From the NCBI GenBank assembly GCA_012295275.1, contig CM022679.1, forward strand, positions 2,790,001 through 2,854,000: a stretch of 64,000 nucleotides of DNA, in the 5' to 3' direction. Shown here in pieces: positions 4,159-27,570 of this stretch. Every line of letters begins with the position of its first letter. Position 1 is the stretch's first letter. Under the pieces are notes generated by a model. That model did not search any database, had not been told where the DNA came from, and saw only the letters and a list, made by a program, of their open reading frames with translations. The stretch comes from Chrysomallon squamiferum (taxonomy: Eukaryota > Animalia > Mollusca). The position numbers were made by a program, and so were the translations under genes.

Positions 4159-7100
4159 TTATGGTAACTGGCTGTAGGAACACACGCGATCACTATTTAG
4201 TTCACAGAAAGCTTCCTGTGCATTGTTGTTCTGTGAATTATTCTGTTCTCTATTTTCCTCCCATAGATTTTCCTCCTCAGGCTTTTGGTAATAGTTCTCT
4301 AATTTTGGAGAAAAAATATTAAATAAATAAAAAGTAATAATAATTAAAAAAAAAAAATACAAAAAAAAATACAAAAAAAAATACAAAAAAAAAAATTATT
4401 TAACAAAAATAATGTAATGTAGTGTAATATTAACAAAAATAAAAATAAATATTAGATATATAAACAAATAAATATTAAATAAATAAAAATAATAAATAAA
4501 TATTAAGTAAATAAAATATCACATTTTATACAGTTCTCCAATGATAATTTGGTTAAAAATATCCACCACTAAAATAACTGGAAATCACTATTACAGTTCT
4601 AACATCAGTATATATTTTTTGGCCCCAAAAAACAGTTATGAATTTAACATAAGGACTTGAAAGAGATTAGTAAAATAACATTAATAAACAAATAAATAAA
4701 TAAATTCCTTTAAAAAAAATTACCATTAAACAAATTACCTTTAAAAAAATATAAATAACAATAAAATTCTTGCCACATTTTGTAATTGCCAAAAATTATT
4801 TATAGGACATTTCTGTTTTTCTTCCACATTTATCCCCAGACCTTGCTTTTATTATTGTTGTTGTTGTTGTTGCTATTATTACTGCTGTTGCTGTTGTTGT
4901 TATTGGTTATTGAAGAGGTGGTTGAGATTATGTAATTTATCTGGTGATGTTTAATATATACATAAAATGTAAAGAAGCTGTTTATGACAAATTTTCTTAC
5001 CTGTCAGATTTATCGTTTCTCTTTTATCACACAGAACCAGTATTTTATTTTGCATCGAAAAAGCGAAAACAGCTGTTATGATCAAACCTAATATTAATAA
5101 TGCTGTGAGTACAGCCCCGATTGGGAAACTTGGACTGTGTTCTGTGTTTTTTGAAGTGTTTTGGGGGACAACAGCTTTTTCTATTGTTTTATAATGTACC
5201 TGGTCTTTATTTGTCTTGTTTTGTGAATAGTATTCATCTGGAAGAGAAATGTAGAACTTAAAAGTGTCAAAATCACAAAATATTTAAATAACAGGAATAA
5301 TAACGTGAATATGTAAATTATGATCATTAGGAATGTGATAATTTATTGTGAATTAAAATTAATTAAATAATAAAATTAATGTTTCAGAGCTTTACAATGA
5401 ATTAGACAAATTTTGTGGTTGAAAAAAATGAAAAGGCAATATTATTATATAAAAAAAATTGAAAGTCTTAAATCATTTAAAATAAAACAGAATAATTAAT
5501 AGCAGTAGCTGAAGAATTCAAGATTTTATAGTTGACTGAGGAAATAGTTAAAAATACTTTATTGCAAAAGTAAAAACACATTTTGCAACAATAATGTTTT
5601 TTTATAATCTCATCAAATTGACATGCTCTTTGAAAACAGTATATCAGTTTATGTACATAACATATTTTTTCCCTAATATTTAATTCAGTGAAAATAATAA
5701 TAAATAAATCATGGCCTAAACTGCAAATACTTTCAGGCTGAAATATGAAAATTATTTGTTCATGTATACCTGGACATTTTGTTTTGCACTCTTCAGTGGA
5801 TCCAGTAATATTATGTTCATAACACAGAACGGAACATGGCTGACATTTCCCTTTTGTTCCAATATGTCGATCAAAATAGAAACCTTTGGCACATTCATTT
5901 TCATTCTTACTGACATCATTCTTCTCTTGAAAACCTGGTATATGATGAATGTAATTATAATATTAGTGTAACTACTCTTCATCTTATATACATGTTCACC
6001 ATCAATTTACTAATCACAGATGGTCCAAAATCTCTTTTAGACTATAAAGATATAAGATGAGGTATCTGAAATTTTTAATTTTTAATATTTTTTAAATTAA
6101 TAATCTGATTGCACTGATGCAGACAGGATTATAAATGTAAACCACAATTTTATATGGATATATTTAATCATTTAATTGACATTTAATTTAAGTTCCTAGC
6201 ACTTTATGGGAAATATGTATTTAGGTGCTCAGAGGTGTGTAGTTAAATTACTATTATGTGAAATTACTATTATGTGAGCATAACAGTCTGAAAAAAACTA
6301 ATAATATGGAAAGGTTATGGAACCAAGGGTTCTGGAAATTTGGTGTTGTTCCTCTAATAATAATAGAAGTTGGTAGAAGTTAAGCAAATTGTTTTGTGAA
6401 TAAAGATACTCTTATTAATTAGCAGCGACATATGTTTTATGTATATATATTTTGTCTTTTGTATAACCATTAATGAAGAGGATATAACAAAGAGTGGGTA
6501 TTTAAGAATATCTGATCCTGTAACACATCAAGCAAGAAATTCAGCTATTCCTAGACAAGGCCAAAATATCAAAATCATTTGGGATGTTTTTAAGTTAAAC
6601 TACTCTAAACAAATAATTAAAATTCTGACCTAACTCCAACCACTTTAACAAATCAGTCTAAAACATAACAATTGTTTGTTTGTATCTCACCTTTACATTT
6701 AAGTTTGCACTCCTTGGTAGTGCCTCGTTGATTGTGATCATAGCATAATTTAGAACACAGCTCACATTTGCCTCTTAATCCGATATGAGGATCCAAATAA
6801 TATCCATCTGGACACTGTATTTCACTCTTTGAAACACCTAGTGGTCCCCCTTCTTTGTTTGTTTTCAAGTATTTAGCTGAGAAAATATTTTGTAAATATA
6901 GTTCAGTGCAGTTATTTATAAAATACAAAATAATATTGTAATAATATAGCAGTAATAGTAGTTAATAGTAGCAGTAGTAGTAGTAGTAGTAACTGTAACA
7001 CTAATAATACTTTAATAGCCAGAAAGTTTGCTTGTTCAAGGCTTTTTAAATAAATAAAGAAAAAAAAAAAAAAATGAAAAAAGAAAAATTTAAAAATAAT

Positions 7101-7489
7101 CTACAGAACTACAGTTTAAAATAATAAATTTACATGGACACTGAATCCTTTTCATTTCCCAGTATTAAATATTTTATTTTACTGTTTTGAATTTAATGTG
7201 TGGGTGTGGGTGTGGGTGTGGGGTTTTGTGGGGTTTTTTTTAACATATAATAATAAAATTAATTAATTAAAGTTAAATCAAATCAAATCAAATCAAATTA
7301 CCAACCTGAACAAACTGTTTTACAGTCATTTTGTCTTTCTCCATTGCTGCACAATTTATCGCAATTTTCACATTTACCGGTATCAGAATCAAAGATGAAA
7401 CCTTTATTACAGATTCGGGTTGAAATTGGACGAGCCAAAGTAACTTGGATAAGAAACAAAATTACTAATATACATCCACATATATTCAT
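4159..7489 (-). CDS. TNFR-superfamily-like type I receptor A (BCMA/TACI/Grindelwald-type CRDs x3, TM, short tail), about 303 aa
   Basis: Five exons, all introns phase 1 GT-AG: 7489-7306 (signal MNICGCILVILFLIQVTLA + CNKGFIFDSDTGKCENCDKLCSNGERQNDCKTVC), 6876-6691 (CPDGYYLDPHIGLRGKCELCSKLCYDHNQRGTTKECKLKC), 5934-5770 (CAKGFYFDRHIGTKGKCQPCSVLCYEHNITGSTEECKTKC; missed by the ORF track), 5237-5001 (stalk + TM IGAVLTALLILGLIITAVFAFSM), 4298-4159 (ENYYQKPEEENLW...VCSYSQLP*). The joined 912 nt is open. Confidence 0.8.
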
Positions 7490-9786
7490 TTCTTAACAGT
7501 ATGACATCGTTCTCTCATGACTATTTCGTAATATTTTTATTAGGTCTTTTTAAGATTCACTGAATAAATAGACTCGTAGTCACACGTTAGCGGCTTTACT
7601 AACACGTTTATGACCCTGAGTCACTTCTAAAAATAGCTAACTGCGTCGTTGAAATAGCTAATTGTTATCTTCAATTTTATAATATTTTTCAAAAAGTAAC
7701 TTTTATTTAGGTACTCTTTGTATATATATGATTTCAGAATGTACAATTAAAATGATGCATGCACAGTGGTTATTATCACAGTACACTGGATATAAATTTA
7801 TATTTTAATAAATATATACTTATTTAATCGTAGCGTGTGTTATATGCTATTTATAGTTTGGGTAATTCCAGTCGGATTTTATTTTTGTTAGGGGAATAAC
7901 CTGAATGGAAAGCATTTTCTCGTCTGTAAGTCACAGTGTCAAACCAGAAAATAATAATAACAATAATAATAAAATAAATAAATAAATAAATAAATAAATA
8001 AAATAAAAAGGTAGGTGCAACTGTACTATATATATTTCCTGCATATTTCAATAAATATTATTTATTTATTTACGTGTTTGTTATCAATCGAATTGCACGA
8101 AAATTTATAAGCAGCTAGACTTTATTAAACAAGATTTAACAAGTAACACACAAAATAACAGTAACAATAAATAAATAAATAAATAAATTAATGATATCAA
8201 AAACAAAATAATAGCTGACAGAGGTTTACTAATAGAGCAAGATATTATTTGTTCTCTTTAGCATTGTCGTAGGACGTTAGATAAAAGTTATAATATTAAA
8301 CAAACCAGTTAACCATAAGAAGATATAATACATAGATACACCACAAAAAATAAAAAAAAAATTAAAAAATAATAAAAAAATAAAATAAAATAAAATAAAT
8401 AAATAAAATTAAAAAATACCAATAAAAAAAAATACTAATAATAAAAATAAAATTTCAAAAAGCAGTATGTAAATATGATAAAGATAAATAAATAAATAAA
8501 TAAATAAATAAATATCGATGAACCCTTTCTTTGTCATACTTTGGTCCTCAGCATAAGAATACTGTGAGGCTATACAAACAAGCAAACAAACAAACAAACA
8601 AACAAACAAGTAACTGATAATGTTTACTGAAAACTTAGTCAGACGCCAGAGATTGTTTCTGAGGAAAATTTCTTCTCCAGTCAATTAAACGTAGAAACGG
8701 AAGGAAATGCTTAAGGTGTTAATAATGTTTTATTTATAGAACACACGTCACGTATGTACCACATGAATGGGAAACCCTGTGACGTTTAATATTATAAATA
8801 GATCAAAAGCCTTGGTGGGCGGTGAAATGCTGCAGTGTGGAAAATATACATATTAAATAAGCATAATGAATGAACAGTTTAATTTTTTTTTTCTTCTTCT
8901 TCTTTACATTAACTGCTGTTAGGTGTTAACAATAATACTAACAAAAAGATTATCAGTAATTAACAATAATTTAATACAAATAAAAGCGACAGTAATCAAT
9001 ACACAAACAAATAAATAAAAAATAAATAATGTTGTTGACACCTTCAAGCAAGTTCATTTCGTCGCCTCGCCTAACTTTGACCATTTGAAAAAAAAAAAAA
9101 AAAAAAAAAAAAATCATTTCCTTAAACAAAGCAAAATGTATTTTTATTATTTAAAAAAAATAATAAAAATAAAAATAATAATATAATTATTTGTAACACC
9201 TGTTAATGCTATGTATACTCTCTCAATCTCGATATAAATAAAAATTGTACTTGTTCCAAAAAAAAAGAGAAAAAAAAAAGAAGAAGAAATTCTCCCTTTT
9301 AGTATGTTTAATTATTTCGAATGTAACGATATCTCGAACTTGATTCCAAGACCCCGAAATTTCGAGACTGAGACAGTTTACTTTATGCATGTATCTGTGT
9401 TTTTCTTGAATGTATGAATGTGTATGTATGTATGTATGTATGTATGTATGTTTATATATTTGTATGTATGTTTGTTTGTGTGTATGTCTGTGTGTATGTA
9501 TTATGTGTGTATGCATGTATGTATGTATATATGTATGTAACACTTTCATTGAATAAAACATAAAAAGATAATAACACTTTCATCGCAAATAATAATAAAT
9601 AAATATATCACAAAAACCTTCCCACGAAATAATATATAAGGTACAGACAGGTAAATAAATAAATACATAGAAATTTGCATTCCTTTTGCCAACATGCAAC
9701 TATTAGGTAAATACATATACAAGAAAATAAATAAATAAATACAGAGTTCATTGAAAACCTCTATAACTTCACGTTATATGCTTATT

Positions 9787-10089
9787 TTATATAATTGTAT
9801 TTGTCAGACATGTGAAACGTTTTTCTGACGGTATCAGACACGACGGTTTTGATAAATCGTTATAAACAGACTTTTTGCGATTTTTTAGTCGCTTGCAGAT
9901 CACGTATGACAAGAAAGATATTAAAAGTAGAACCAGCGTTGTAGCAAGGGCGATAACCAACGTCATATTATAATCTGACGGATAAGTCGATAGGCATTTG
10001 TTGTCATGGAGTCCGGCCGATGTGTCGGAGTAATCTGAAAATGGAAAAAAAATAAAAATAAAAAAAATAAATAAATAAATAAATAAACG

Positions 10090-10139
<50 letters not shown>

Positions 10140-10531
10140 TAAGTTATGTATATATTCAGCCACACACATACATACACAAAATATTTTCGACTATACATGA
10201 TACAGACCAGGGGTGCCCAATACGTCATAGACAGTGTGAGTAGATCGCATAACAACAAAAAATAGCCTATCAACCATCCTGCAAGTGCAAGTGCAAGTGC
10301 AAGTCATCAGAGTAAGGTGATGGCCAAAAATGTACGTACAGGTTCATTCTGTTATGCAAGGTACACCAACATATATTGTAAATATAAGGTATACTTAGAA
10401 TAAATAAATTAAATAAATAAATAAATAAATGTATTGCGCTTTCACTGTAGGTAGATCATTTTGACTTGGTCATTTAAAAAGTGTGAGCACCTCTGATATA
10501 GACAAACGTAGATTACTTTTTAAAAATAGTG

Positions 10532-10568
<37 letters not shown>

Positions 10569-11149
10569 GAATCACTAAATAACTTTGAAGATAAAATGTA
10601 TGATTTAATATTTTTCAGAATTAATGACAGATAAACTAAAAATTTAACAGCAATATCCACAGACATACAAACACAAACTCTACAGCCACTTACATATTTG
10701 GGGCCCTGATGCGTGATCGGTTATGGGGGGCCTTTCGCTGTTTCGGTAAACATAGTTACCTTCTTCTTAGACTTGCTCCATAAAAGATTTTTAAAATTTA
10801 GCCACATGACAGATTTTAATTGAAATTTTTAAGACATGTGGACTGAAGCTGATATTGGGGCCCCTTTGGGTTTAGAGGACCCATAAGTTTAAGCTCTGTC
10901 AGTTTCACAATAGATCACCCCCACAAACAAGCGCGCGCGCGCGCTCACACACGCTACTAAGAAAGAAACACACTTACGTGGACAGCGTTCCTGACATTGT
11001 TTCCTCGTCTTTTGGATGTCGGCTGCGTAACAAATCAAATGGCATGGATCACATTGCTCTGTCACAGGATCATAGTACGTTCCTTCTGCACATTCTTCAC
11101 TGTCAGTGACAGAAGATATAATAAGAATGACAATAATTTCAGTAAGCAT
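9787..11149 (-). CDS. TNFR-superfamily-like type I receptor B (single BCMA/TACI-type CRD, TM, tail with SVYNDL), about 139 aa
   Basis: Exon 11149-10978 (MLTEIIVILIISSVTDS + CAEGTYYDPVTEQCDPCHLICYAADIQKTRKQCQERC; donor c|GTAAGT) and exon 10034-9787 (HYSDTSAG...TM LVIALATTLVLLLISFLSYVIC, KRLKNRKK stop-transfer, SVYNDLSKP...TNTII*). Phase 1, 420 nt open. Confidence 0.8.
10208..10495. mobile_element. Non-autonomous hAT (Charlie-like) MITE in intron of receptor B
   Basis: Imperfect TIRs CAGGGGTGCCCAA / GTGAGCACCTCTG, flanked by an 8-bp TSD atacagac / atatagac (7/8 match). Confidence 0.7.
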
Positions 11150-11879
11150 CACGTACAATTTTCCCGTCTGTTACCACAGTCGCATATATTTTTCTATAAA
11201 TGTATTTCAATGTGTTTATTATTATTATTATTATTTCTGAATTGCAAAATGTTTGCTGTTATTCAGAGTAGACAGCGTTTATGTTCAGATTTCGTTTTTG
11301 CTGAAGGCAAGTAAAAGAACTAACTCCTCCAAATGCTTAAATTTATATAGAAATATATAAGAAAAAAGAAAAAAAAAAAGGTTTATTTTTAAACACACGT
11401 AAAATCACATCACATTAACGGAAAAACCCATTACTTAGTGACGTGTCCGATTTTTATAGTCAGTAATAATAATAATAATAATAAAACAAAAAAAATAAAA
11501 ATAAAATAAAATAAAAATAAAAAATAAAAAAGCTTTTTTTTTTTTTTTTTGTAGCTTACAGAAATACAGAAATATACTACTCAGTTAGTGGTGATCACTG
11601 TATAATGTACATTAACATTACTGCTTGAATCTGAATATTTCTCAACTCACAGTCATTCTGTATATCATCTGTCAAAAGTCATTTACATTGTGTCAATTTT
11701 CGTTTATTTTGTTTTATTTGATCATACTTATTTTATCATTATCATCATTATCCTCTTGTTGTTATTTTTGTTTTTCTAAAACATCGCTTTGACCTAACAA
11801 GAAAGAACAAAACGAAACACTGTATATTAATCCTGCAATTATCAAATTTAATCAATGGCTATATGACGTCATGACAACG

Positions 11880-12025
11880 TAAGAAGGAACCTGCTGCACT
11901 GCTTGACTGGGCTACTCTTTTTTGACCAGCAATAAAGTATTTTGTTTATATGTACCTTCCCACGGATGAGAAAATACATACTAATGCCTTTGATGAGCTA
12001 ACTGTGGAGTACATGTTGGAATGTT
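11880..12025 (-). mobile_element. Degenerate SINE-like repeat fragment
   Basis: Loosely resembles, in the opposite orientation, the segment at 29890-29975 (...ccgtggtatgtgctaccctgtctgtggg). Recalled as similar to a widespread mollusc SINE core; not verified. Confidence 0.3.
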
Positions 12026-12261
12026 TGAAGAGAACTGATTCTGCCATCCATTAACTTTAAAGACAGCTAAGTCCCTCCTCTTGAAGGCCAAAGCACGTCC
12101 GTTATGGCCACACACCGCTGTGTTTGACGTAACTGCAGGTATGAAAAATAGCAAGCCAAATGGCGAATTAGTGCAGAATCTGTTATAATAGTTTTATTTT
12201 TATAATACAGTGAGAGACAGAGTTGGTTCTGAGATTTACATTTGCATGGACTATTAGAACA

Positions 12262-12332
<71 letters not shown>
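12262..12332. repeat. (AAT)n microsatellite
   Basis: Directly visible. Confidence 0.95.
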
Positions 12333-12336
<4 letters not shown>

Positions 12337-13884: not shown

Positions 13885-15342
13885 ATGGAGCTGATTTATT
13901 ATTCGTCAGCTGTAATTTTGCTTTCTGTTTACGTTCTAACAAAACCCAATTGTCCACCGAACACTTATTACGACTCTTCAACAAGGAATTGTGATTCGTG
14001 TGGTTTTATTTGCACGTATCCAGAAATTCAAGGCACCGTAGACAAGTGCAAAAACCTCTGTCCAGGTAAATGTATAAATATAAATATAAATATATATCAG
14101 TATATTTTGTTCTAACAATTTTTATCAACGACAATTTGTAAACTAATATATTACTTATTTTGAGTAGTGATTTTTTTTTTTTTTTTTTACATTTAGATTG
14201 TAATAGAGCCTGCACGGGCGCATCCATATTCGAGTGAATTATCTTCACCTCGTAGCCCTGTTGTTATTCATAATACTCATTTTAACAGTCTCGTCAAATT
14301 CTGGTTATATGTTTTTCTATTAGAAACGTCATATACAGAAGATGAATAAAGTACCAAGTTGTTTTTCAAGACCTTTCCACTGTTAATCAACAATCACTTT
14401 GAATACATTTCTTCAGCGTAACTTAAAACAGTTCTAGCTCATATTCGGGATCGGAGGCTTTTTCCCCTCAACTGTTACGTAGTCTTCATTCGAAAAACTG
14501 ATGTAACACAACCGTGTTACACACGCACTGGTAATCACGAAATCGATACTGGAACCCATCCATTTGAAACGATAAAATAAAATTTGGTGCATGCCTGATA
14601 TTTCAAACAACAATTATTTATTGTTTGTGAACGATTGTCTGAAACGCGGAGCCTCGCTTATTGACAACAGGGTGATTTCTTTTCCTAAAATTCTGTAAAG
14701 AAATCAAATCAAATTAATTGCTGTATTATAATTAAAATTTATTTAAGTTCTAATTTTGTGGTGTTATTACTTTCATTTAATAAAAATAACTTTTTTATAT
14801 GAATTACAGTGATAATGTATGAGGTCTGATTTATTTTTCTGTTGTATTAACAGTATATATAACTGACTACACTGTTCAGTCTGTAATACAGGCCATAAGC
14901 ACATAAATTACAGGCCATCAGATAAAGTATATCAAGTTTGTGGTGTCTAAATATATATTTGTTTTCCTTTTTTGTTTCTAGGATTCACCACCCCTAAATC
15001 AACAGATCGACCTATTGATATTGAGGAACCTATTTCATATAGCACCATAGCGATTATTGTCATTATAGTAGTTGTTGCGGTCATCAGTGCTGTTGGTGTT
15101 TCGTACTGCCTAATAAAGAAAAAATGTGCTAAAGGACGTGCAAAAAACCAAGGTTTGACATCATATACGTATTTATTTGACAAGCAAGTTTTTTCTTTAT
15201 TTCTTCATTTATTCGAGTAGCATTATTGTTAGTTTAGCTGACTTTTTTGTTGATTTTTATTTTTATTATTATTTTTTTTTTGTTAATGTTCTTTCATTAA
15301 AATAGTCATATATCTCTATACGCAGATTCTTTTTTTAAATTA

Positions 15343-15748: not shown

Positions 15749-16092
15749 TAGTGTATGAGTATGTGTGTGTTTGCCCTGACATTGGTTAATCTCTTGCAGT
15801 CAGGATAATTTCACCATAATCTTTTTTTTCTCTCGGTAAAATTAAAAACATGACTATGACGTGTTTACTGGTTTTACTGAAATATGTAACAGTTGAGTGT
15901 TTCTTTTCTGCAGAGAAAAAACAGAAAAGTAAACTGCTTCCTCCAGAAGACAGGAAAAAACCTGTGGAAGCAACAGAAGAGAATCCTGCTTCTCAGAAAC
16001 TATGGCAAACTAGAAGGGAGACAACCATTGAAAACAAAATGATTTTTAATAAACATGAAAAAGGATACTCTTCAAATAAAGTAATAAAATAG
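13885..16092 (+). CDS. TNFR-superfamily-like type I receptor C (single CRD, TM, TRAF-motif tail), isoform with terminal exon 3a, about 176 aa
   Basis: Exons 13885-14065 (signal + CPPNTYYDSSTRNCDSCGFICTYPEIQGTVDKCKNLC), 14982-15152 (stalk + TM IAIIVIIVVVAVISAVGVSYCLI + KKK) and 15914-16092 (EKKQKSKLLPPEDRKKPVEATEENPASQKLW...). Phase-1 GT-AG introns, open frame. Confidence 0.8.
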
Positions 16093-16390: not shown

Positions 16391-16467
16391 GTTCCAACAT
16401 AAGAAGACCAGTGCAATGTTCAGAAGCAAATCCTACCTGTGATAAACTGGTAGTATCTGGTCACTAA
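16391..16467 (+). CDS. Alternative duplicated terminal exon 3b of receptor C (GSNIRRPVQCSEANPTCDKLVVSGH*)
   Basis: Poly-T + AG acceptor in phase 1, compatible with exon 2. The peptide and the preceding 70 nt of intron align with exon 3a and its acceptor region. Confidence 0.55.
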
Positions 16468-18223
16468 TTTGAGGAAGATTCTTTTTGTTTTCATGGTGTA
16501 GTAAACAACTTTTCAGTTAATTCTTGACATATATACACTACGGTTTACCTTCACTTTTCTGGACACCTGAAAAAGAGTAGTAAAAGAGATACTGTTCAGT
16601 TAGGATTGGCTTCAATTTGTGGGTAGAAGTTGAAAACATTCGCTTCAACTGTATTAAAAAAAAAAAAAAAACTTATTGAAATAAATAAATAAATTAATTA
16701 AAAACTAAAAAGTAAAAAATGTAAAATAATGTGTATTTGAACAAACAAAAACAAAATAACAACAACAGCTATAGTATTTTTACACTTTTGTACAATCTTA
16801 CTGAATTAAAAGTTATTATAGGCCTGAATAAGATAAGTAATAGACAATTAAATAGTTTGTCTTCTGTTATCTGCTCTTAGTAACAAGCTGCATTATAGCA
16901 TCCTTATTGTTACACTAATTTAAAATTGTACTTAACTTGTACTTAGATGTTAAGGAATGTTAAGAATTACTATTTACATTTAATTTGTACTGAAGTCTTA
17001 AATAATTTTAAAATGTTACAGAATAAGAATAAGATCATATTATTATTTAGTCACGTATTTACATTTGACTTGTATTTGAGTGTCAAAGTATTTTAAATTG
17101 TTATAGAACAAGAGGCATCAGAATATGTGAAACAAGCGGGCCTCTCCTTCCCTTGAAAAACTAGATAAACTGGTAACATGCTGAACATATAAGAGTTTTC
17201 GGTAGAGAGAACATATGAACTGTTTAATACCTAATATCTGTTCTGTTGTTTTTGACTTGTGCATAGCTATTGTGTAAATAAACCGTAAAATAAATGTGTT
17301 AAGATGCAGTTATGTTTATATATATATATATTTAATGTCTTCAAATTTTTAATATTTACAGTTTTCATTTTGTTAAACTTTTACCGTTTATTTACACAAT
17401 AGCTATGTACACAAAGTCAAACTGCAGTTATTGTAATGACACTTTATTGGAAGAAACTGATTTCTGATGCATATTAACAGTTGATGCATTTTGTTGCAGT
17501 TTGCTTTGATTCTTATTGTTATTATTATTTTAGTTGTCTATATGTTATTTGCTGTATGGAATTCTATTTATTTTTAATAATTAATTCTACTGATTGTTTG
17601 TAACATAAATGCATTTTGTAAATATTTGTGTTCTTCTATTTGTGCCATTTAACACAAAAAAAATATCTGATCAGAATGTCATATGTCACCTTTTGTGATA
17701 TCAGATGTGTCACAAGATGCATTACTGTAATTAACACATTTGCATATTAACACATTTATTTACATATACTTATTGTACATGAAAATATAGACTGTTCTTG
17801 AATGTAAACATACGGTTTTAAAGTGTGATGAAGCCATTATGTCAGACTTAATTGTCTGTTCTAGACCATCAGTGACATGTAAATACAAATTTTATACCTT
17901 TTATGTAGTTGTTTTCTTTCTTACTTTTTTACATAATTAGTTGTATAGTTGAATGAAATGAACAGTGAAAGACTCATTTGAACACAAAAAACTTCACTTT
18001 AGTAAACATCTTCCACTGACTGAACAAACTGAGAATTGTGTATACGTAGAGGCCAGTAATCTCTTACACTAGAGTACTTCATTTGATAGAATACAAACAT
18101 ACAAATGTACACACATACATATGTATACACATTGTCAACAGCATTTCCCCACATCATTTTAACAATGTATTAACTTTAAACTGAAACAAACAAAAAAAAA
18201 AATTTAAAATTTAAAAAAAATTA

Positions 18224-18268
<45 letters not shown>

Positions 18269-18335: not shown

Positions 18336-18415
18336 GATTTGGGGGTTTTCTGATTAGGGGGTTTCCCGATTTGGGGGTTTCCAGATTTGGGGGTTTCCCG
18401 ATATTGGGTTTTCCA
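18336..18415 (+). promoter_or_regulatory. Five-unit 16-bp NF-kappaB-like array upstream of receptor copy D
   Basis: gatttgggggttttct, gattagggggtttccc, gatttgggggtttcca, gatttgggggtttccc, gatattgggttttcca; paralogous to 13758-13834. Confidence 0.5.
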
Positions 18416-18502
18416 GATTTATTTTTAGAATATAGAACCGGCTTAAACGTAAAGTGAAAGCGGTAGACAGAAGCTGATCGTTCGGATCGCCATTTAAATC
18501 TG

Positions 18503-19618
18503 ATGGAGCTGATTTATTATTCATCAGCTGTAATTTTACTTTCTGTTTACGTTCTAACAAAATTATTTGTAAACCGAACTCTTACTACGATTCTTCGACA
18601 GATAACTGTGATTCATGTGGTTTTATTTGCACATTTGCAGAAATTCAAGGCACGGTAGACAAGTGCAAAAAACTCTCTCCAGGTAAATGAATAAATATAT
18701 TTTGTTCTTGTTCAATTTTGATCAACGACAAATTCTAGACTGTAGTAGAACCTGCATGAGCGCATCCATCTTGGAATGAACGATCTTCGTGTCGGAGCGC
18801 TGTTGTTATTCATAATACTCATTTTAACAGTCTCGTCAAATTCTCTGTTATATGTTTTTCTATTAGAAACGTCATAACGCTTGATATTTAGTACAAAAAG
18901 ATGAGTAAAGTAGCACTGCTAAACATTTTTCAAGACCTTTCCACTGTTAATCAACAATCACTTTGAATAAATTTCTTTAGCGTAACTTAAAACAGTTCTA
19001 ACTCATATTCGGGATCGGAGGCTTTTCCCCCTCAAATGTTTTAGTCTTCATTCGTAGTCTTCATTTTGTAAAACTGAATGTGGTTTTATTGGTTTAATCT
19101 AATAAAAATAACTTTTATATAATTGTTTACAGTGATAATGTATAAGGTCTGGTTTCTTTTTCTATGATTCTGGCCATAAAATCCATCAGGTAAATTAAAA
19201 TTTATTTATTTTCAAGTTTGTGGTGTCTAAATATATATTTGTTTTCTTTTTTACAGTTTCTAGGATACATCATCCCTAAATCAACAGATCCACCTATTCA
19301 GCATGAGGACCCAGTTTCATATAGCACCGTAGCGTCTTTATTTCTTTAAATTGTCATTATAGTAGTTGCTCTGGTTTCTGTTCTTTTGGTGTTTTCTTTT
19401 TGTTTCTAGGAAACAAAACAGATGTGCCTAAAGGACATGAAAAACAGCATATAGCACTATTGACATCATTTTATACGTATTTATTTTGACTTGCAAGTTT
19501 TTGTTTATTTCTTTATTTATTCTAAAAACATTAAGGTTTGACATATTTTACATATTTTAGCTGATTTTTTTTATTTATTTATTTATTTATTAATTTATTC
19601 TTTTTATGATTATTTATT

Positions 19619-19654
<36 letters not shown>

Positions 19655-20328
19655 TTCTTTAAGATGAATTTTTTTTTCCTGTTTAAGGAAAGATGTATCA
19701 GCCTTGTATGAGGAGATATTGTTTGAATTATTAAACGATTTTCACACCTTTTAAAATAATACACTGATTTCTGTCACCTTTTTAAGACTAGTTTGTGACC
19801 AGATACAGATTTAGATTTCATAGATTGTTTACTGATGATACCTAATTCATGATTTCTCTCTAAATAAATCTGTATTTCATTTAAATTTGTTAAGCCTGTT
19901 TCTTTTCAGGATCTGTTAAATATATTTTACTGGTGCTGTGAAAACACTTTTCATAATGCTAAATAACTAATGTTTGTTCTTATATACAAAGTGTGTGTCT
20001 GTTTATATGTGTATCTCTGTATCTCTGTCTGTGTGTGTGTGTGTGTGTGTGGGTGTTGTGTTAACCTCCTGTGTGTCAGTGTAATTTTGTTTTTGCGTCA
20101 ATGATTTTTTTTTTTCACTCAGGAAACCTCTGTATGTTTTTATTGTCATGTAAAATTTAAAAAATAAGTATCAAGTGTATGCTGGTTTTACTGAAATATG
20201 TAACAGTTGAGTGTTTTTTTTCTGCAGAGAAAAAACAGAAAAGTAAACTGCTTCCTCCAGAAGACAGGAAAAAACCGGTGGAAGCAACAGAAGAGAATCC
20301 TGCTTCTCAGAAACTAGTGGTAAACTAG
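18503..20328 (+). pseudogene. Receptor D: tandem duplicate of C, frameshifted and stop-containing
   Basis: Exon 1 (18503-18682) is 180 nt versus 181 in C, with a 1-nt loss before the first Cys and the last Cys changed to Ser (tgt>tct). Exon 2 from 19264 has an inserted in-frame TAA, further indels and no clear donor. Exon 3 (20228-20328) is intact (...PVEATEENPASQKLVVN*). Confidence 0.7.
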
Positions 20329-20789
20329 AAGGGAGACAACCATTGAAAACAAAATAATTTTTGATAAACATGAACAAGGATACTCTTGAAAAAAAGAACA
20401 AAATAATTTAGATCTGAACAAAGAAACAAAATTGGATCTAAAAAAAAAAAAATGTAAATAAAATAAATAAATAAATTAAAAAATAAATAAATAAATGAAT
20501 TAAGAATTAAAAAGTAAAAACTGTAAAATAATGTGTATTTGAACAAAGAACAAACAAAATAACAACAACAAGTAATAGATATTAAATATTTTATCTTCTG
20601 TTATCTGCTCTTAGTAACAAGCTGCAATTTCAGATTACAGATTTGTTTTAATTTATCAAGAGATTATAGCATCCTTATTTTTACACTAATTTAAAATTGT
20701 ACTTAACTTGTACTTAAATGTTAAAGAATGTTAAGAATTACTATTTACTGAAGATGAAAATCATTAAATCCTTTATTTATTTGGTTAAA

Positions 20790-21160
20790 ACTTGTCTGCA
20801 GCTGACAATAGCTAAAAACCAAGGACTCCCTGGAGACAAACTAACTGCCCTCATGAAATGTGTATGTGTATGTGGCTCACCAGTTCTAACCTGGCATACA
20901 TGACTGACTGCTTATACCCCTCCTGCCCTTCAAATTAGAGTCCGTGGAAGAGCCAAGATGCCCCAATTAACCAACCACCACAGTACAATGCTGATGTCAT
21001 CTTCAGCTCCTAAGACTGAGTATATCCACATTACCTTAAGCTGAAGTGGAACCTAACCCAAGACCAGAGGAACCTTATCTCTCTTCAGGGTTCCTCCAGC
21101 CAGAATGAGTCTATATCCAGTCCATCGATCATGGAAACACTTGGCCTCCACCCAAAACAA
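20790..21160 (+). mobile_element. Possible decayed non-LTR retrotransposon 3' fragment inserted in unit D
   Basis: GC-richer block absent from unit C. It translates to CVCGSPVLTWH, reminiscent of the C-x-CG...H zinc-knuckle region at the end of LINE ORF2. Confidence 0.3.
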
Positions 21161-23235
21161 CAGTACTGCAGTTGTTGTAATGGCACTTTATTGGAAGAAA
21201 CTGATTTCTGATGCCTTATGGCACTTATATTATACTGGACCAGTCAACTACAGTTAATTCCCTTTGGCCGCTGCCCTTCCTTCCCATCCAGTAACCTCAC
21301 AACTAGCTGTATTTTCCTGGCACTGAATGGGATTATTAGGTGTTACAAATAGTCTGTATATTTCTATCACATCATTATAAAACTGTTCATACACTCTGTT
21401 CTCTCATGGCAGCAAACAAGTACTTCAGTGTATCTTAATATAAGATATTAAAAACAATAAAAAGTAAATTATATTTTTATATTGAAAGAAACACATCACA
21501 GATATGCAAATAAAAACGAAACATATAAATACACATAGAAACACATACACAAACTAAGATCCTTATATTTTTTTTTTTTTTTTTTTGAAGAGTATCAGCA
21601 ATACAGTGAGAATTTTGAATCTCTGTAGGAAACATGTCCAATGACTGTTAGATATTGCTACCATGAGGACAGTATTTAAAGATACAGGGACTTATCTTCA
21701 CTGTAAAACACATTAGTTCCAACTAGTAGAAATAATCAGCAGGTAATTTTTTTTTTTTTTTTTTTTTTTGATGCCATACACTAACTGGAATTCTGCCCTA
21801 ATGTTACTAGTATCCTATGAAATCAAACTATGCTGATAACATATCATACTTTCTGCTAGCTAGATGTGATCCTATGACATGACTTTCTTCTAGCAGGATA
21901 TGATCCGGTTATACAATTTTGTATTAGTAAGACTTTCAGCTAGTAAAACAGATTTAGCTTTTTAACAGAATAATTAAATTGGAGAGGTAGCTTCATGTAT
22001 GAAACATCTGAAGAAATTAGATACGCAATGACAAATTCTGAAGATGTGGATGCCCTGAAGCTAACTCTAAATCATTAATAACTGAATATTAATAATTAAT
22101 AATAACAACTAATAACTCATTTATTAATAGTAGACATAATTTTTACAATTGATGCATTTTCATGCAGTTTGGTTTTGATGCTTATTGTTATTATTATTTT
22201 AGTTGACTGTGTTGTTGATTGCTGTATGAAATTCAGTTTGAATGTTTAATAACTATTTCCATTGCTTTTTTATAATGTAAATGCATTTTGTGAATATCAG
22301 TGTTAAGGTTTTATTTGTTAGTTAACACACATAAAAAAATATCTGATCAGAATGGCACATGTCACCTTTTGTGCTATTAGTTTTGTGAAAGACGTTCTAA
22401 ATCAGATGTGTCACAAGATGCATCACTGTAATTAACATATTTGCATCTTAACACATTTATTTACAGTCTTATTCTTGAATGTAAACATGGTTTTGAAGTT
22501 TATAAAGTAAATAAAAATGTTATATCTTTTATGTAGTTGTTTTCTTTGTTATTTTTTTTACATAATTAGTTGTATACTTGAATGAAATGAACAGTGAAAG
22601 ATAAACTGTAAAATAATTGAAGTGTCATTGAATTATGATGACTCAAAATGACATGTGTTCATTTCCTCTTATTACTTTTTATTTTATTTTATTTACTGAC
22701 ATTTATTATATTTATTTATTTATTATTATTGTTATTATTTATTTATTTATTGGGCAATTTCTCAATGAGAACACAAATTTTAAACATATTTTGCAAGAGA
22801 GTCATTTATGTCAGCATTTGTTAAATATATTTTTATAATAATAAAGCTTGTCCCTGGAAGTTCTACTTTCTGCTAGGGAGTTATACTACACAAACAGCAA
22901 ACATACATATAAACACACATACATATAAACATACATACATATAAACATATACACATACATACAAATGTACACACATACATATGCATAGACATTGTCAACA
23001 GCATTTACCACAGCAATTTTAACAATGTATTAACTTTAAACTGAAACAAACAAAAAATAAATTTAAAATTAAAAAATAAATAAATAAATAATAATAATAA
23101 TAATAATAATAACTGAATAAATAAATAAAAATGACAAAAATGTTTGAAAATATTAAACATGATCTCTTTCCACAGTATAGGTACCAAAAGTGATATGTTT
23201 AAAATATTTAAACTTTTACTTTGTCAGAAAATTAC

Positions 23236-23266: not shown

Positions 23267-24954
23267 AGTCTCACTGAATTATGGTGACTCAAAATGAAGT
23301 TGTTATTCCGATATGTGTGTATTTCCTCTTATTACTTTTAATTTTATTTTATTTACTGACTTATTTATTTTTTCTTATATTATTTATTTATTTATTTTAT
23401 TTATTTTGGCAATTTCACAAATTTTCAACACATTTTTCAGGGGAAAAAACTGGTGTTGTCATTCTTATATTTCAAGACTACTCACTACTATGGTTTAGGC
23501 CAGATGTACTGATTTACGTCACAGCATTTAGTTCTGTCTGTAAAATAAATTTATATGAATGTAGGCCAGTGACAACTTCCAGGATCAACTGTAGTGAACC
23601 CCTTCTGCCCTTATACCGAGTTTCAGGATTCAGAGTCCTAAGCATTTTCTAAATTTAGTCTCTACTATCGTGTAGACCACATAGAGTGATTTATGCCACA
23701 GCTTTCATTTCTGTCTGTAGGTCACAACCAACTGGTTTGTACAGTCCATTTATAGTACCATCCCTAACATTTTGGACCTGTGTTCTTAAATATATATTTA
23801 TAATAATAAATCTTGTGCGTAGAAAATGAAAGACTCGAATCTGAAAATAAAACAAATTTGCCCGTCATGACAGAACTAAATATATCTGTTATTGTGGATA
23901 TTAATAATTAGAAATGGTGATTAATATATCAGAATAATCTATTCAGTATTAATCAACACTGTGTATCTTGATTTTTCATTATTAAGTATTTTAAATATTT
24001 AGTGGTAAACAGTTAAAACGATGCTGTGATATACAGTTTCAACATCCTATGCGATCTCTGAAGGCCAGTTTTTTTCTGTCACGTATTTTTAAATTCCTCA
24101 CACAGGCCATTTCTTTCCTTGTTTATACTATTATTATAAGATATTATAACCCTCAGTTTGGTTTCCGCGGCAAACTGAAGGTTTTGTATACGCGTGATCC
24201 TTCAGAAAAACTCGTGGCCTATAAAAATACGCGAACTTAATTCGTCCTGAAAGTTTCATGTACGTGCAGTTTTCACTCGCTCATTTTGATTGTTTTGGTC
24301 AGACTGAATCTACCTGATTATTTGTCCCTGGGTGATATAAACCAGGATAAAAAAATAAAATAAATAACGACCCTAAAAAAAAGAATTTGAAGAAATGCGC
24401 CACCTGAAATGTGTGCGTGCGTATGTGTGTTACTTAAAAGACTACAAGTATTTGATCTCTAACCATAATCTTCTGCAATACACAAACTCGGCTACAGCTT
24501 GGAGCTCCCTCCAGAAAGGTGTTTCAGGTTCTACTTAGGGGCAATAACTTTATTTCTTTGTTTATTTGAGTAGCATTAGTTTTAGTTTAGCTGACTATTA
24601 TTATTTTTATTTAATATGTTACTTCATTTAAATGATTATATAACTTTAAAAGCAAACTATATATTTTTTAAAATTATTTTTATGTTATTACTGGTTTGGT
24701 GTGAAACTTTTCATAATGCGAATTAACTAATGTTTAATCTCGTGTACAAAGTGTGTGTATGTGGGTATATATCTGTATGTGTTTCTCTATGTGTGTATAT
24801 GTGAGTGTGCGCGTGTGTCTGTATGTGTGCTTGCAGTGATATTGGTTCACCTCCTTCAGTCTGGATAATTTCACCATAATTTTTTATATTTTTTTCAGGA
24901 ACCCTGCATATATTTTTATAATCATGTAAAATTCTAAAAATTTTAAAATATTAA

Positions 24955-25540
24955 TTTAAAATTTCAAGTATAATACACCTAACTTATAATGATGATAGTT
25001 AAATTTCAAATATTACATCATATTAAATGTATAATTATCGTATGTAAATTTCAAACATAATACATCCTACTTATAATGATGACAATTAAATTTGAAATAT
25101 TATATTTAAATAATAACTATATGTAAATTTCAAGTATTGATACAATACATCTAACTTATAATGATGTCTGTAAAAATTTGAAATATATTATATTTAATTT
25201 CTAATTATGATATGTAAATTTCAAGCATAAAACATCCAACTTATAATGATGAATATTAAATTTGAAGTATTATATTATTTTTAATTTATAGTTATATGTA
25301 AATTTGAAGTATTGATACAGTACATCCAACTTATAATGGTGACTGTAAAAATTTCAAATATTATATTATATTTAATTTATATATATGATAAGTAAATTTC
25401 AAGCATAATATATCCAGCTTAGATGACTGAAAATATTTCAAATATTATATTTAATTTATAATTATGATATGTATATTTCAAGCATAATACAACCAACTTA
25501 TAATGGTGACCGTTAAATTTCGAATATTATATTATATTAT
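24955..25540. repeat. AT-rich minisatellite, about 85-88-bp unit, about 7 copies
   Basis: The motif taaatttcaagcataatacatccaacttataatg recurs near 24960, 25045, 25125, 25215, 25300, 25393 and 25472. Confidence 0.85.
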
Positions 25541-26101
25541 AATATACTAAAATGTACAATGTGAAGCTATTGTTAAAATAATCAACGACACTAAAAATGA
25601 AACAAAATATAAACCAGTAATGTTAATAATGAAATATAAATGAATAAAGAAAGAAAGAACAGAAACAACATTAAATAAATATAAACACCTATATTCTCAC
25701 ATTAATATACATAATTATAAATAAAATTAAATAATAAATAATCTTTATTAAAAATAACTATATTTAAAATTTCGCGGGTCTTTTTTTAGTTTCTACAGTT
25801 CCGGTCATTAACGTTTTCTCTCGTTTTCAATAACCAGAGACAGTCGGGTATCTCGTAAGAGTAAGAAACGAGTTATATGCAAGTATGGTAAGTACTGATG
25901 TTATTTATAAGCATGGGGGTGTTAGTGAAATCATATTCTCTATTATATTTTATAACCAAACTGTAAAGAATCTTGACATTTCTTCAAAATCGTTCACCGG
26001 CAAAACATTTCTGTTGATAAACATATCATCAAGTCGAAATGCACGTGCTAAAGCGAAAATATTGAAATGCCGCTATATCGTTAGCAAGGAATATACTGGG
26101 A

Positions 26102-27570
26102 ATGGTAAGCTGGCAATCATGTTTAACTTTCGGAGTAGAACTATTTGTTGTTTGTAAAAGTTCGAAACTGATCAAGTGAATGTTTACAATCTAGTTAGGT
26201 CACAATGACCCATATGTAACAAATGTGCTAATCAGAGCAAGTTGTTTGATGACCGTTGCCTCTTTCTGATAGGTAAGAGAGCGTGCCAGTCGCAGATACA
26301 CACATATATGAATATGTATGTTTTATTTATAGGACACTCCACCGCGTTACCAACCAATCAGCCTTGTGAGCACGTATTTGCAATTTCTTATAGCTGCTGT
26401 GATCATCATTGTTATTGGTTTTGTGTACTTGAGAAGAAGACAAGAAAACCAAGGTGTGACATAATTTACGTATTTACTTGCAAGTATTTTCTTTATTTAT
26501 TTGAGTACCATTACTTTTAATTTAGAAAACATTTATTAGTGATATTTTAGAGTTATTTAATATTTTATTTCATTAAAATGATCATATAACTTTAAAAGTA
26601 AATTTTAAGCTGTTGTGGTCATCAGGAGTATTCATGTCTCGCAAAGAAAGAAAATGAAAAAAAACCAAGGTGCGACTTAATTTACTTATTTATTTCACTT
26701 GCAAGTTTTTACTTTATTTCTTTGTTTATGTGAGTAGCATTAGTTTTAGTTTAGCTGATCATTATTATTTTTATTTAATACGTTACTTCATTTATAAGCA
26801 AATTTTTTATTTTTTTTTAAATTAATTTATTTTTAAAATTATTATTAATTTTAAGATGGCTATTTTTTTTTTCCTGTCTAAGGAAAGATGCATTCAGCCT
26901 TGTATGAGGAGATATTGTTTCACTTATTAAATGATTTTCACTCCTTTTAAAATAACACACTGATTTCTGTCACCTTATTAAGAACAGTTTGTGACCAGAT
27001 ATGGACTTACTTTTATAGATTCTTTACAGATCAGGGGTGGGCAAACTTATTGGTTCAAGGTTTTTAAAAAATACTCATGAAATCTATTTATTTTTTCTGT
27101 TTTTAATCAACAAATGTATTGTTGAAAGGCTGAGTCCAGTTGCAATGCGCCACCTGGTGGTACCAATTAAATACCTGGTGGCACCAGTGAAATGAAGACT
27201 ACGAATTTAAAAATGTTATAGGTTTATTGTTCGTGAAAATTCCTGACGGGCTGGATAAAATGATGTTGCAACACAAGGCAATAATGTCGTAGTTTGCCCA
27301 CCTCTGCTCTAGGTGATAAATATTTATCCGTATTTCATTTAAATTTGTTAAGCCTGTTTGATTTCAGGAATATGCTTTTTTTTTACTGGTTTTGGGTGAA
27401 ACTTTTCATAATGTTTGTTCTCATATACAAAATGTGTTTGTGTGTGTGTGTTTCTCTATGTGTGTACATGAGCATGCATGCATGTGTGTGTGTGCTTGCA
27501 ATGAAATTGGTTTAACCCCATGCACTTTTTTTCAGGAACCCTCCATCTATTATTATTATTGTGTAAAATT
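26102..27570 (+). pseudogene. Degraded receptor paralogue E (CRD-like remnant, frameshifted TM exon, second TM-end remnant), truncated by the gap
   Basis: AG-flanked exon 26333-26453 (121 nt, 1 off frame): GHSTALPTNQP / VSTYLQFLIAAVIIIVIGFVYLRRRQENQ|GT. A second ...KKNQ|GT remnant lies at 26609-26669. The downstream intron is homologous to C/D intron 2. A possible CRD remnant ends at the donor at 26272. Confidence 0.5.
27032..27306. mobile_element. Non-autonomous hAT-like MITE
   Basis: TIRs CAGGGGTGGGCAAAC / GTTTGCCCACCTCTG. The paralogous intron of D (about 19825-19840) lacks it. TSD is degenerate. Confidence 0.7.

What the first reader, a model, noticed from the sequence alone, without database searches (positions are those of the whole stretch)
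4159..27570. Cluster of BCMA/TACI/Grindelwald-type mini TNF receptors in an invertebrate
Seen: five paralogues (A, B and C intact; D and E broken) in 23 kb. The intact ones have signal peptide - six-Cys domain(s) - stalk - TM - short tail, and every CRD is bounded by phase-1 introns. CRD A1 has spacing C-x12-C-x2-C-x3-C-x8-C-x3-C and an aromatic-aromatic-Asp hairpin. Established: this is the BCMA CRD spacing; TACI and Drosophila Grindelwald use related compact folds, and BCMA/TACI bind ligand via a DxL hairpin. Seen: the Asp is kept but the following residues vary (DSDT, DPHI, DRHI, DPVT, DSST). Inference: a lineage-specific, diversifying family of TNF-ligand receptors that standard annotation would miss because the exons are short.
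Basis: partly seen in the sequence, partly recalled or inferred. Interest (0 to 1): 0.85.

Follow-up and report, generated by a model that had tools for sequence, protein, structure and literature searches.

The report
Snail cluster of mini TNF receptors
A genome that is likely a snail's holds a tandem cluster of small membrane-protein genes (three with open reading frames, one of them shown to be spliced, plus two broken copies) whose outer domains are predicted to fold like the fly receptor Grindelwald and the human B-cell receptor BCMA, so they are likely TNF receptors of a mollusc-wide family that databases leave unnamed.

Summary
Real, but not lineage-specific. A (three six-cysteine domains), B and C (one each) read as signal peptide–domain(s)–stalk–membrane helix–short tail. 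RNA contigs of one study join all four introns of A; B–E were not tested. D is a broken copy of C; of E only a broken membrane exon is demonstrable. First domains share an exon with the signal peptide, so not every domain is intron-bounded. A confident model (pLDDT 92) matches only Grindelwald, BCMA, TACI, Fn14 and BAFF-R (6 of 6 rows; best Z 4.7). The domain is a hybrid: BCMA-like aromatic–Asp hairpin but no DxL, Grindelwald-like helical spacing but six cysteines. A profile found 78 relatives; all 27 named ones are molluscan and none is annotated as a TNF receptor; Gigantopelta has counterparts of A, B and C, and abalones have apparent clusters. Tails are enriched for TRAF-binding motifs. Positive selection on the hairpin was not found. 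Ligand binding is untested. Grindelwald-like receptors of bivalves and annelids are already in a preprint, and this scan noted similar genes on other DNA (clam, annelid, arthropod).

The parts
7306..7489 (-). Gene A exon 1: signal peptide + domain A1 (Cys spacing 12-2-3-8-3, hairpin DSDT)
   Evidence: Open frame, phase-1 GT donor; covered by RNA contigs in 3 of 4 runs and joined to exon 2 in one run
6691..6876 (-). Gene A exon 2: linker + domain A2 (15-2-3-11-3, hairpin DPHI)
   Evidence: both junctions in RNA contigs; Pfam TNFR_c6 E 0.003, below cut-off
5770..5934 (-). Gene A exon 3: linker + domain A3 (15-2-3-11-3, hairpin DRHI)
   Evidence: both junctions in RNA contigs
5001..5237 (-). Gene A exon 4: stalk, membrane helix, start of tail
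   Evidence: both junctions in one 543-base RNA contig
4159..4298 (-). Gene A exon 5: tail with PEEE (Px[QE]E TRAF-type motif) and stop
   Evidence: Junction 5001/4298 in an RNA contig; motif
10978..11149 (-). Gene B exon 1: signal peptide + domain (12-2-3-11-3, hairpin DPVT)
   Evidence: Pfam BCMA-Tall_bind E 6e-4, 20.2 bits against a cut-off of 27; modelled at pLDDT 92; splicing not tested
9787..10034 (-). Gene B exon 2: stalk with an unpaired Cys, membrane helix, about 35-aa tail with PSEKRF (PxExxZ), stop
   Evidence: splicing not tested
13885..14065 (+). Gene C exon 1: signal peptide + domain (12-2-3-11-3, hairpin DSST)
   Evidence: groups with Gigantopelta P0014 (99/86); splicing not tested
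14982..15152 (+). Gene C exon 2: stalk, membrane helix (donor GTTTGA is weak)
   Evidence: splicing not tested
15914..16092 (+). Gene C exon 3: tail with PVEATE (PxExxZ) and stop
   Evidence: nearly identical copy in D; splicing not tested
16391..16468 (+). Duplicate tail exon behind C exon 3, in frame with C exon 2, motif PVQCS; possible alternative last exon or stray copy
   Evidence: its upstream 159 bases are 92% identical to 27422-27570; use not tested
18503..18682 (+). Pseudogene D exon 1: copy of C exon 1 with a 1-base loss after the signal peptide and the sixth Cys replaced
19264..19455 (+). Pseudogene D exon 2: stalk/membrane exon with in-frame stops, indels and no donor
20228..20400 (+). 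Pseudogene D exon 3: tail exon, near-identical to C for 29 codons, then a 1-base insertion and stop
26333..26453 (+). Remnant E: frameshifted stalk/membrane exon homologous to C and D exon 2, followed by intron-2-like DNA up to the assembly gap at 27571
26110..26272 (+). Supposed domain exon of E: a Cys-containing stretch before a GT donor; homology not shown
   Evidence: no significant match

Best explanation
A, B and C encode small single-pass membrane proteins whose six-cysteine outer domains are predicted to take the Grindelwald/BCMA fold and that likely bind trimeric TNF-family ligands and likely signal through TRAF adaptors. Steps: (1) shown: gene structure, splicing of A, membership of a mollusc-wide family. 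(2) predicted: each domain is a beta-hairpin followed by a helix-loop-helix. (3) inferred from the BCMA, TACI and Grindelwald complexes: the hairpin tip with its kept Asp inserts between two subunits of a TNF trimer, and the residues after the Asp set which TNF paralogue is bound. (4) inferred: the trimer clusters three tails; these have no room for a death domain and recruit TRAFs through Px[QE]E or PxExxZ motifs, leading to JNK/NF-kB signalling. (5) the cluster is old, with continuing birth and death: A, B and C have separate counterparts in Gigantopelta; C later gave D, which decayed; E is an older remnant. The three domains of A would add avidity or a second ligand specificity.
For: Fold: model at mean pLDDT 92; of 48,161 solved chains only 6 reach Z 2, and all 6 are Grindelwald (Z 4.7, 39 residues, rmsd 2.6), BCMA (two entries), TACI, Fn14 and BAFF-R; Foldseek ranks 1-10 are all BCMA. 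Sequence: family profile against the PDB gives BCMA first, E 2.4e-4, six Cys and the Tyr-aromatic-Asp aligned, and TACI at E 0.017. ESM Atlas neighbours of the Gigantopelta counterpart of C: a mollusc cluster 0.95, Grindelwald 0.94, TACI 0.92, Fn14 0.91, BCMA 0.90. Topology: 62 of 78 relatives have a membrane helix after the last domain. Tails: Px[QE]E in 12 of 61 tails against 3.6 in shuffles (0 of 2000 reach it), Px[QE]E[TS] 9 against 0.6; after grouping related tails 10 of 48 against 3.4 (2 of 1000) and 8 of 48 against 0.6 (0 of 1000); motifs as defined in PMC6125299. Asp kept in 80 of 83 modules. Molluscs have many TNF ligands, up to 27 in one species (preprint).
Against: No single score is strong: no Foldseek match reaches E 0.001 and the best Z is under 5; no window domain passes a Pfam cut-off and 1 of 40 relatives does (TACI-CRD2). 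The DxL motif is absent: Leu two places after the Asp in 0 of 6 window domains and 0 of 106 modules. Only 12 of 61 tails carry Px[QE]E; the PxExxZ motif, the one that B and C carry, is not enriched (4 of 61 against 4.3), and the Gigantopelta counterparts of A, B and C show no Px[QE]E. The positional counterpart of A1 lacks the Asp. Transcripts of B and C were not tested.
Confidence: 0.7

Rival explanations
1. The fold is TNF-receptor-like, but several members act mainly as decoys or tuners: they bind TNF ligand and signal weakly or not at all (short or motif-less tails, possible shedding from the Ser/Thr-rich stalk).
For: 49 of 61 relative tails lack Px[QE]E; tails are short and unalike (48 groups among 61); B has only about 35 tail residues; V, L or I ends 25 of 61 proteins against 15% expected (p 1.5e-6), which points to PDZ-type localisation rather than TRAF signalling.
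Against: TRAF-type motifs are enriched well above shuffles; A carries PEEE in its RNA-supported last exon; C and D kept the tail exon almost unchanged.
Confidence: 0.13
2. The domain has been redeployed to bind something other than TNF (microbial or symbiont surface molecules, or another cytokine), as a variable recognition receptor.
For: Tandem clusters, gene turnover, loss of DxL, the column after the Asp is the most variable one (3.67 bits); RNA contigs of A differ from the assembly at 7 codons, 6 of which change the residue.
Against: dN/dS 0.30 for C against D and for the A2/A3 hairpin; counterparts in another genus keep 52-65% of non-Cys residues in 4 of 5 domains; Grindelwald also lacks DxL yet binds Eiger (PMC8024323); four of the seven changed codons come from one shallow contig.
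Confidence: 0.12
3. The module is not TNF-receptor-related: a chitin-binding peritrophin (CBM14), furin-like or LDL-A type cysteine module that resembles BCMA by chance.
For: CBM_14 scores almost as well as BCMA on B (E 0.0011 against 6e-4); 57 of 135 profile hits lack the six-Cys pattern, and 4 of 4 of these that were scanned are CBM_14 proteins; NCBI calls one relative 'laminin subunit alpha-like'.
Against: The CBM_14 match covers only the hairpin (profile positions about 2-20); the predicted second half is helical; no such module reaches Z 2 in the wide structural search and LDL-A rows rank below the TNF receptors in Foldseek; TRAF motifs in the tails.
Confidence: 0.04

Closest known systems
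Drosophila Grindelwald (PDB 6ZSY, 6ZT0; PMC8024323)
   Same: Best whole-domain structural match (Z 4.7-4.9, 39 of 40 residues); helical module spacing Cys-x3-Cys-x11-Cys-x3-Cys as given for Grindelwald's C2 module in A2, A3, B and C; no DxL; short tail without death domain.
   Different: Six cysteines, not eight (no second hairpin disulfide); keeps the aromatic-aromatic-Asp hairpin; one to three or four domains per chain; occurs as a multi-gene cluster, not a single gene.
BCMA (TNFRSF17) and TACI domain 2 (TNFRSF13B)
   Same: Best sequence match (E 2.4e-4 and 0.017): six Cys, Cys-x12-Cys-x2-Cys-x3-Cys and Tyr-aromatic-Asp; hairpin and first helix superpose at 1.0-1.6 A over 23-25 residues; TACI also has tandem domains.
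   Different: No Leu two places after the Asp; second module usually three residues longer; a signal peptide is present, whereas BCMA and TACI have none (recalled, not from a call); below the Pfam cut-offs.
Fn14 (TNFRSF12A)
   Same: Signal peptide, one six-Cys domain, short TRAF-binding tail (PMC3648529); Z 2.0; Atlas score 0.91.
   Different: Weaker match; lacks the S-x-D-L tip named in PMC8024323.
Invertebrate 'grnd-like' receptors of bioRxiv 10.1101/2024.07.27.603686
   Same: CXXCXXXC signature and membrane helix; homologues reported in Crassostrea and Mizuhopecten and 12 paralogues in one annelid. The window's genes very likely fall in this class.
   Different: In the sections read they are described as single-domain; no gastropod cluster, tandem-domain form, hairpin Asp or tail motif is discussed ('gastropod', 'BCMA', 'TACI', 'DxL': 0 occurrences). 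Its homologue lists were not seen.
Unnamed mollusc proteins: Gigantopelta aegis XP_041363601 and XP_041364166 (A-like), XP_041364976 (B-like), XP_041362680 (C-like); Haliotis rufescens LOC124152008-024
   Same: Same architecture; 44-49% identity to A, B and C over 74-189 residues; 6 of 7 Gigantopelta hits lie on one contig; abalone hits share a contig and have near-consecutive ids.
   Different: Annotated as uncharacterized, hypothetical or laminin-like; tails diverge; gene positions within the contigs were not seen.

Membership tests
Mini-CRD TNF receptors (Grindelwald/BCMA/TACI/BAFF-R/Fn14 type) | Extracellular Cys-rich domain: beta-hairpin followed by helix-loop-helix | tested here: met
   Model pLDDT 92 with E7-10, E15-18 and helices; all 6 rows at Z 2 or more are these receptors. 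Predicted, and Z is under 5.
Mini-CRD TNF receptors (Grindelwald/BCMA/TACI/BAFF-R/Fn14 type) | One membrane helix after the domain(s); short tail without death domain | tested here: met
   A, B and C read by eye; 62 of 78 relatives by hydropathy, median tail 72 aa; no death domain in 40 relatives scanned with Pfam.
Mini-CRD TNF receptors (Grindelwald/BCMA/TACI/BAFF-R/Fn14 type) | TRAF-binding motif in the tail | tested here: inconclusive
   Px[QE]E enriched in the family and present in A; B and C carry only PxExxZ, which is not enriched. No binding test.
Mini-CRD TNF receptors (Grindelwald/BCMA/TACI/BAFF-R/Fn14 type) | Binds a TNF-family trimer | not testable with these tools
   No TNF ligand of this organism was at hand: no whole genome is held and none was seen in the window.
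Mini-CRD TNF receptors (Grindelwald/BCMA/TACI/BAFF-R/Fn14 type) | Disulfide connectivity of the second module (nested as in Grindelwald/Fn14, or as in BCMA/TACI) | not testable with these tools
   The structure tool returns no coordinates. Spacing and whole-domain Z lean to the Grindelwald type.
BCMA/TACI/BAFF-R subfamily in the strict sense | Asp-x-Leu at the hairpin tip | tested here: not met
   0 of 6 window domains and 0 of 106 modules have Leu there; Val 28, Gly 27. Motif as named in PMC8024323.
BCMA/TACI/BAFF-R subfamily in the strict sense | Pfam PF09257, PF09305 or PF09256 above the curated cut-off | tested here: not met
   Best window score 20.2 against 27 bits; 1 of 40 relatives passes TACI-CRD2 (24.1 against 22.9).
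Grindelwald in the strict sense | Eight cysteines, X2 hairpin with two disulfides | tested here: not met
   Six invariant Cys in alignments A2 and A3; Grindelwald has eight.
Grindelwald in the strict sense | C2 module spacing Cys-x3-Cys-x11-Cys-x3-Cys | tested here: met
   A2, A3, B and C (D with the last Cys lost) and 101 of 115 modules; A1 has x8.
Canonical elongated TNFR_c6 receptors (TNFR1/Wengen type) | Pfam PF00020 above the cut-off | tested here: not met
   Best 18.4 bits in the window and 21.1 in relatives, against 29.4.
Chitin-binding peritrophin-A (CBM14) | Match over the whole domain above the cut-off | tested here: not met
   Only profile positions 26-46 of 53, 19.6 bits against 22.1.

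The most novel reading that the evidence does not exclude
This family is the living intermediate between insect Grindelwald and the vertebrate B-cell receptors: a BCMA/TACI-type Asp hairpin on a Grindelwald-type helical module, so the ligand-binding hairpin of BCMA/TACI predates the protostome-deuterostome split. Molluscs have built from it an old clustered panel of paralogues, each with its own hairpin and tail, that decodes their expanded TNF repertoire; three-domain members such as A could clamp several sites of one TNF trimer with a single chain, a mode not described for TNF receptors.
Probability: 0.3. Interest if true: 0.75.

Novelty: new variant of a known kind. Interest (0 to 1): 0.5.

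Why it matters
Molluscs have many TNF ligands (up to 27 in one species by the preprint), and receptor surveys built on Pfam TNFR_c6 do not see this family, whose members sit in NCBI as 'uncharacterized'. Naming it supplies candidate partners for those ligands and a small, foldable domain on which pairing can be tested. Its mix of BCMA-like and Grindelwald-like features bears on whether the fly receptor and the B-cell receptors share an ancestor, which the two evolutionary preprints read leave unsettled. It is less surprising than first scored, because Grindelwald-like receptors of bivalves and annelids, with expansions, are already reported.

Tried and rejected
Word-indexed homologue search with the six window domains: none among 211 candidates; with a 40-protein alignment only 5 of 4359, all of the family, two of them new (Nucella, Littorina); too insensitive to say anything about non-molluscs. 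Alternative last exon for A at 4940 (13 codons, then stop) and five other donors: rejected, RNA joins 5001 to 4298. B's domain exon as a fourth domain of A: rejected, B has its own membrane exon and A its own signal peptide. Further domains elsewhere in the window: none by pattern scan, tblastn or profile. Positive selection: dN/dS 0.30 for C against D (38 codons) and for the A2/A3 hairpin (8 codons); A2 against A3 as a whole is saturated at silent sites; too few codons for a site test. The 'C vs D tail' line was read in the wrong frame for D and the first motif list has an indexing error; both were discarded. PxExxZ enrichment: none. Atlas structure searches: all TM under 0.5, uninformative because the full-length models are poor. 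Link to the Biomphalaria polymorphic transmembrane clusters: one listing, not followed. The tree has 38 columns and an unsettled bootstrap; only three local groups are used. Literature searches that found no description of this gastropod family or cluster: (open-access library only).


Full report
What is in the sequence. A six-frame scan of the window for the Cys pattern gave five hits, all within the finding; a sixth, D, has lost its last Cys. Gene models were built from coordinates. A lies on the minus strand with exons 7489-7306, 6876-6691, 5934-5770, 5237-5001 and 4298-4159 (303 aa; signal peptide, three domains, stalk, membrane helix, tail of about 63 aa). B lies on the minus strand, 11149-10978 and 10034-9787 (139 aa). 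C lies on the plus strand, 13885-14065, 14982-15152 and 15914-16092 (176 aa). All introns are GT..AG and phase 1. Signal peptides and membrane helices were read by eye from hydrophobicity; no dedicated predictor was run. In A, B, C and D the first domain is on the same exon as the signal peptide, so the statement that every domain is bounded by phase-1 introns is true only for A2 and A3.

Expression. Five public runs hold part of 4150-14100, four of them RNA from one study. On gene A, contigs from 3 of 4 runs cover exons and all four introns are skipped: one 543-base contig joins exons 2-3-4-5, and two contigs of another run cross the exon 1/2 junction. Contigs show presence only, and the runs are one study. 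No RNA was laid on B, C, D or E, so those models rest on open frames, splice signals and homology.

Broken copies. About 4.6 kb around C (13654-18252) recurs at 18232-23112 with 70-84% identity in most blocks. The copy, D, has a one-base loss after the signal peptide, Ser for the sixth Cys, stops and indels in the membrane exon and a one-base insertion in the tail exon. Its domain differs from C's with dN/dS 0.30 and its signal peptide only at silent sites, so it probably worked for a time. E keeps a frameshifted stalk/membrane exon (26333-26453) that is homologous to C and D (0 of 300 shuffles in both tests) and intron-like DNA up to the assembly gap; its supposed domain exon matches nothing significantly.

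What the domain is. Pfam gives only sub-threshold hits: BCMA-Tall_bind on B (E 6e-4), TNFR_c6 on A2, C and D, CBM_14 on B and C, nothing on A1 and A3. A profile of the six window domains finds BCMA first in the PDB (E 0.009); a 47-sequence profile improves this to E 2.4e-4 with all six Cys and the Tyr-aromatic-Asp in register, and TACI at 0.017; the other rows of that search match mostly through the membrane helix. AlphaFold2 on B's domain gave pLDDT 73 with 6 sequences and 92 with 47: hairpin, then helices. Foldseek's first ten rows are BCMA, none at E 0.001, with Grindelwald having the best TM-score by query (0.66). The wide structural search leaves 6 of 48,161 chains at Z 2 or more: Grindelwald 4.7, BCMA 3.1 and 2.6, TACI 2.5, Fn14 2.0, BAFF-R 2.0 (one search agrees). 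The scores are low, as expected for 40 residues, but the list holds nothing else. The ESM Atlas places the Gigantopelta counterpart of C beside a mollusc cluster, Grindelwald, TACI, Fn14, BCMA and BAFF-R (0.95-0.90); the three-domain counterpart of A scores lower, 0.90 for a mollusc cluster with some TACI/BCMA hits.

A hybrid, not a BCMA. Passages of PMC8024323 give Grindelwald eight Cys, a C2 module spaced x3-x11-x3 and no DxL, and give BCMA, TACI and Fn14 a hairpin tip with Asp-x-Leu or Ser-x-Asp-Leu. The family here has six invariant Cys, x12 in the hairpin (96 of 115 modules), an aromatic residue and an Asp that are nearly fixed (83 and 80 of 83), x11 in the helical part (101 of 115) and never Leu two places after the Asp (0 of 106). 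The x8 spacing of A1 that matched BCMA occurs in 1 of 115 modules, and A1's positional counterpart in Gigantopelta has x11, so that exact match is probably a local shortening; the search profile does favour x11.

Range. HMMER over 1.84 billion representatives returned 135 proteins; 78 carry the six-Cys pattern, one to three copies each, and 62 of these have a membrane helix behind it (truncated or read-through models were not removed). Most of the other 57 match only the hairpin, and 4 of 4 scanned are CBM_14 proteins. Of 30 family members looked up, 27 are named: Gigantopelta aegis 7, Haliotis 15, Nucella 2, Mercenaria 2, Ruditapes 1; 26 are uncharacterized or hypothetical and one is 'laminin subunit alpha-like'. 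Best BLAST hits of A, B and C are three different Gigantopelta proteins (44%, 47%, 49%); in the domain tree B groups with P0030/P0021 (100/87), C and D with P0014 (99/86), A2 and A3 with domains of P0001, P0002 and P0003 (96/89), while A1 does not group with P0002's first domain (few columns, rough supports). Six of 7 Gigantopelta proteins share a contig; H. rufescens LOC124152008, 009, 012, 016, 019 and 024 share one, as do near-consecutive accessions in H. asinina, H. cracherodii and H. rubra. Clustering is inferred from ids and contig lengths. So the window is probably from a gastropod near Gigantopelta, and the family, and likely the cluster, are old.

Diversification. Family-wide, the residue after the Asp is the most variable column, but other surface columns are close (3.67 against 3.61, 3.48 and 3.42 bits). 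Between window domains and their Gigantopelta counterparts 9 of 15 residues at Asp+1 to +3 are identical, the same rate as the non-Cys residues overall in A2, A3, B and C (52-65%); A1 is far more diverged (5 of 20 comparable) and its counterpart lacks the Asp. dN/dS is 0.30 where measurable. One hint the other way: RNA contigs of A differ from the assembly at 7 codons, 6 changing the residue, four of them in one 97-base contig of depth 3.5 that may be an allele, an unassembled paralogue or an error. The picture is old paralogue differences and gene turnover, not shown positive selection.

Tails. Using motifs recalled and then confirmed in passages of PMC6125299 (the wider [PSAT]x[QE]E form is recalled only), Px[QE]E occurs in 12 of 61 tails against 3.6 in shuffles, Px[QE]E[TS] in 9 against 0.6, PxQxxD in 6 against 1.1; the excess holds after related tails are grouped. 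PxExxZ is not enriched. A has PEEE, C has PVEATE, B has PSEKRF. V, L or I ends 25 of 61 proteins, which suggests PDZ-type binding; that reading is inference.

Mechanism and verdict. Most likely these are small TNF receptors: hairpin into the groove of a TNF trimer, clustering of tails, TRAF recruitment (0.70). Rivals are decoy or tuning roles (0.13), a non-TNF ligand (0.12) and an unrelated module (0.04). They work like Grindelwald and BCMA but fail the strict tests for either. Of bioRxiv 10.1101/2024.07.27.603686 I read the abstract, Results, Discussion, the first part of Methods and term passages: it reports 115 Grindelwald-like homologues, including two bivalves and 12 paralogues in an annelid, and puts nine human receptors in the same tree. 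Its supplements were not seen and may list gastropod members. Of 10.1101/2021.12.26.474206, PMC8024323, PMC6125299 and PMC3648529 I saw passages only. Eight searches of the open library listed no paper on this gastropod family or cluster, judged from titles and abstract starts. What appears new is the tandem-domain form, the hybrid anatomy, the old gastropod cluster and the tail motifs. New variant of a known kind; interest 0.5.

Noticed in passing
window 40705-41223 (-), 44735-45415 (+), 56741-57331 (+), 61386-61925 (+): Four similar open frames, each with one BIR domain above the Pfam cut-off: repeated IAP-like exons 13-34 kb from the receptor cluster. IAPs act downstream of TRAFs (recalled); the proximity may be chance.
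   Followed up: partly
window 16164-16468: A duplicate of the intron end and tail exon sits behind C's last exon, in frame with C exon 2, with PVQCS, close to the TANK motif PIQCT quoted. It could switch C's tail type, or be a stray copy of E's tail, whose place falls in the assembly gap; D has no such copy.
   Followed up: partly
window 5797-5893: One shallow RNA contig differs from domain A3 at six bases (three residue changes, one in the hairpin) and is not a copy of A2; allele, unassembled paralogue or error.
   Followed up: partly
window 9993-9995 region, gene B stalk: An unpaired Cys in B's stalk (residue 71) could form a disulfide-linked dimer.
   Followed up: no
window 400-1612 (+): Last exons of a CCDC96/CCDC113-family gene (Pfam E 1e-11) flank the cluster on the left; useful as a synteny marker.
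   Followed up: partly
window 34976-35524 (+): Last exon of a Ras-family GTPase ending in CVLQ (Pfam Ras E 3e-19); RASD/Rhes-like by recall.
   Followed up: partly
window 24548-24900 and 24916-25580: A further remnant of C's second intron without exons, followed by an AT-rich tandem array of about 85-base period.
   Followed up: no
window 48910-54200 (-): Scattered coding-like frames and a 15-codon-period array at 48910-50010; four frames scanned gave no Pfam hit.
   Followed up: partly
window 27571-27770: Assembly gap of 200 N directly after remnant E; further cluster sequence may be missing.
   Followed up: no
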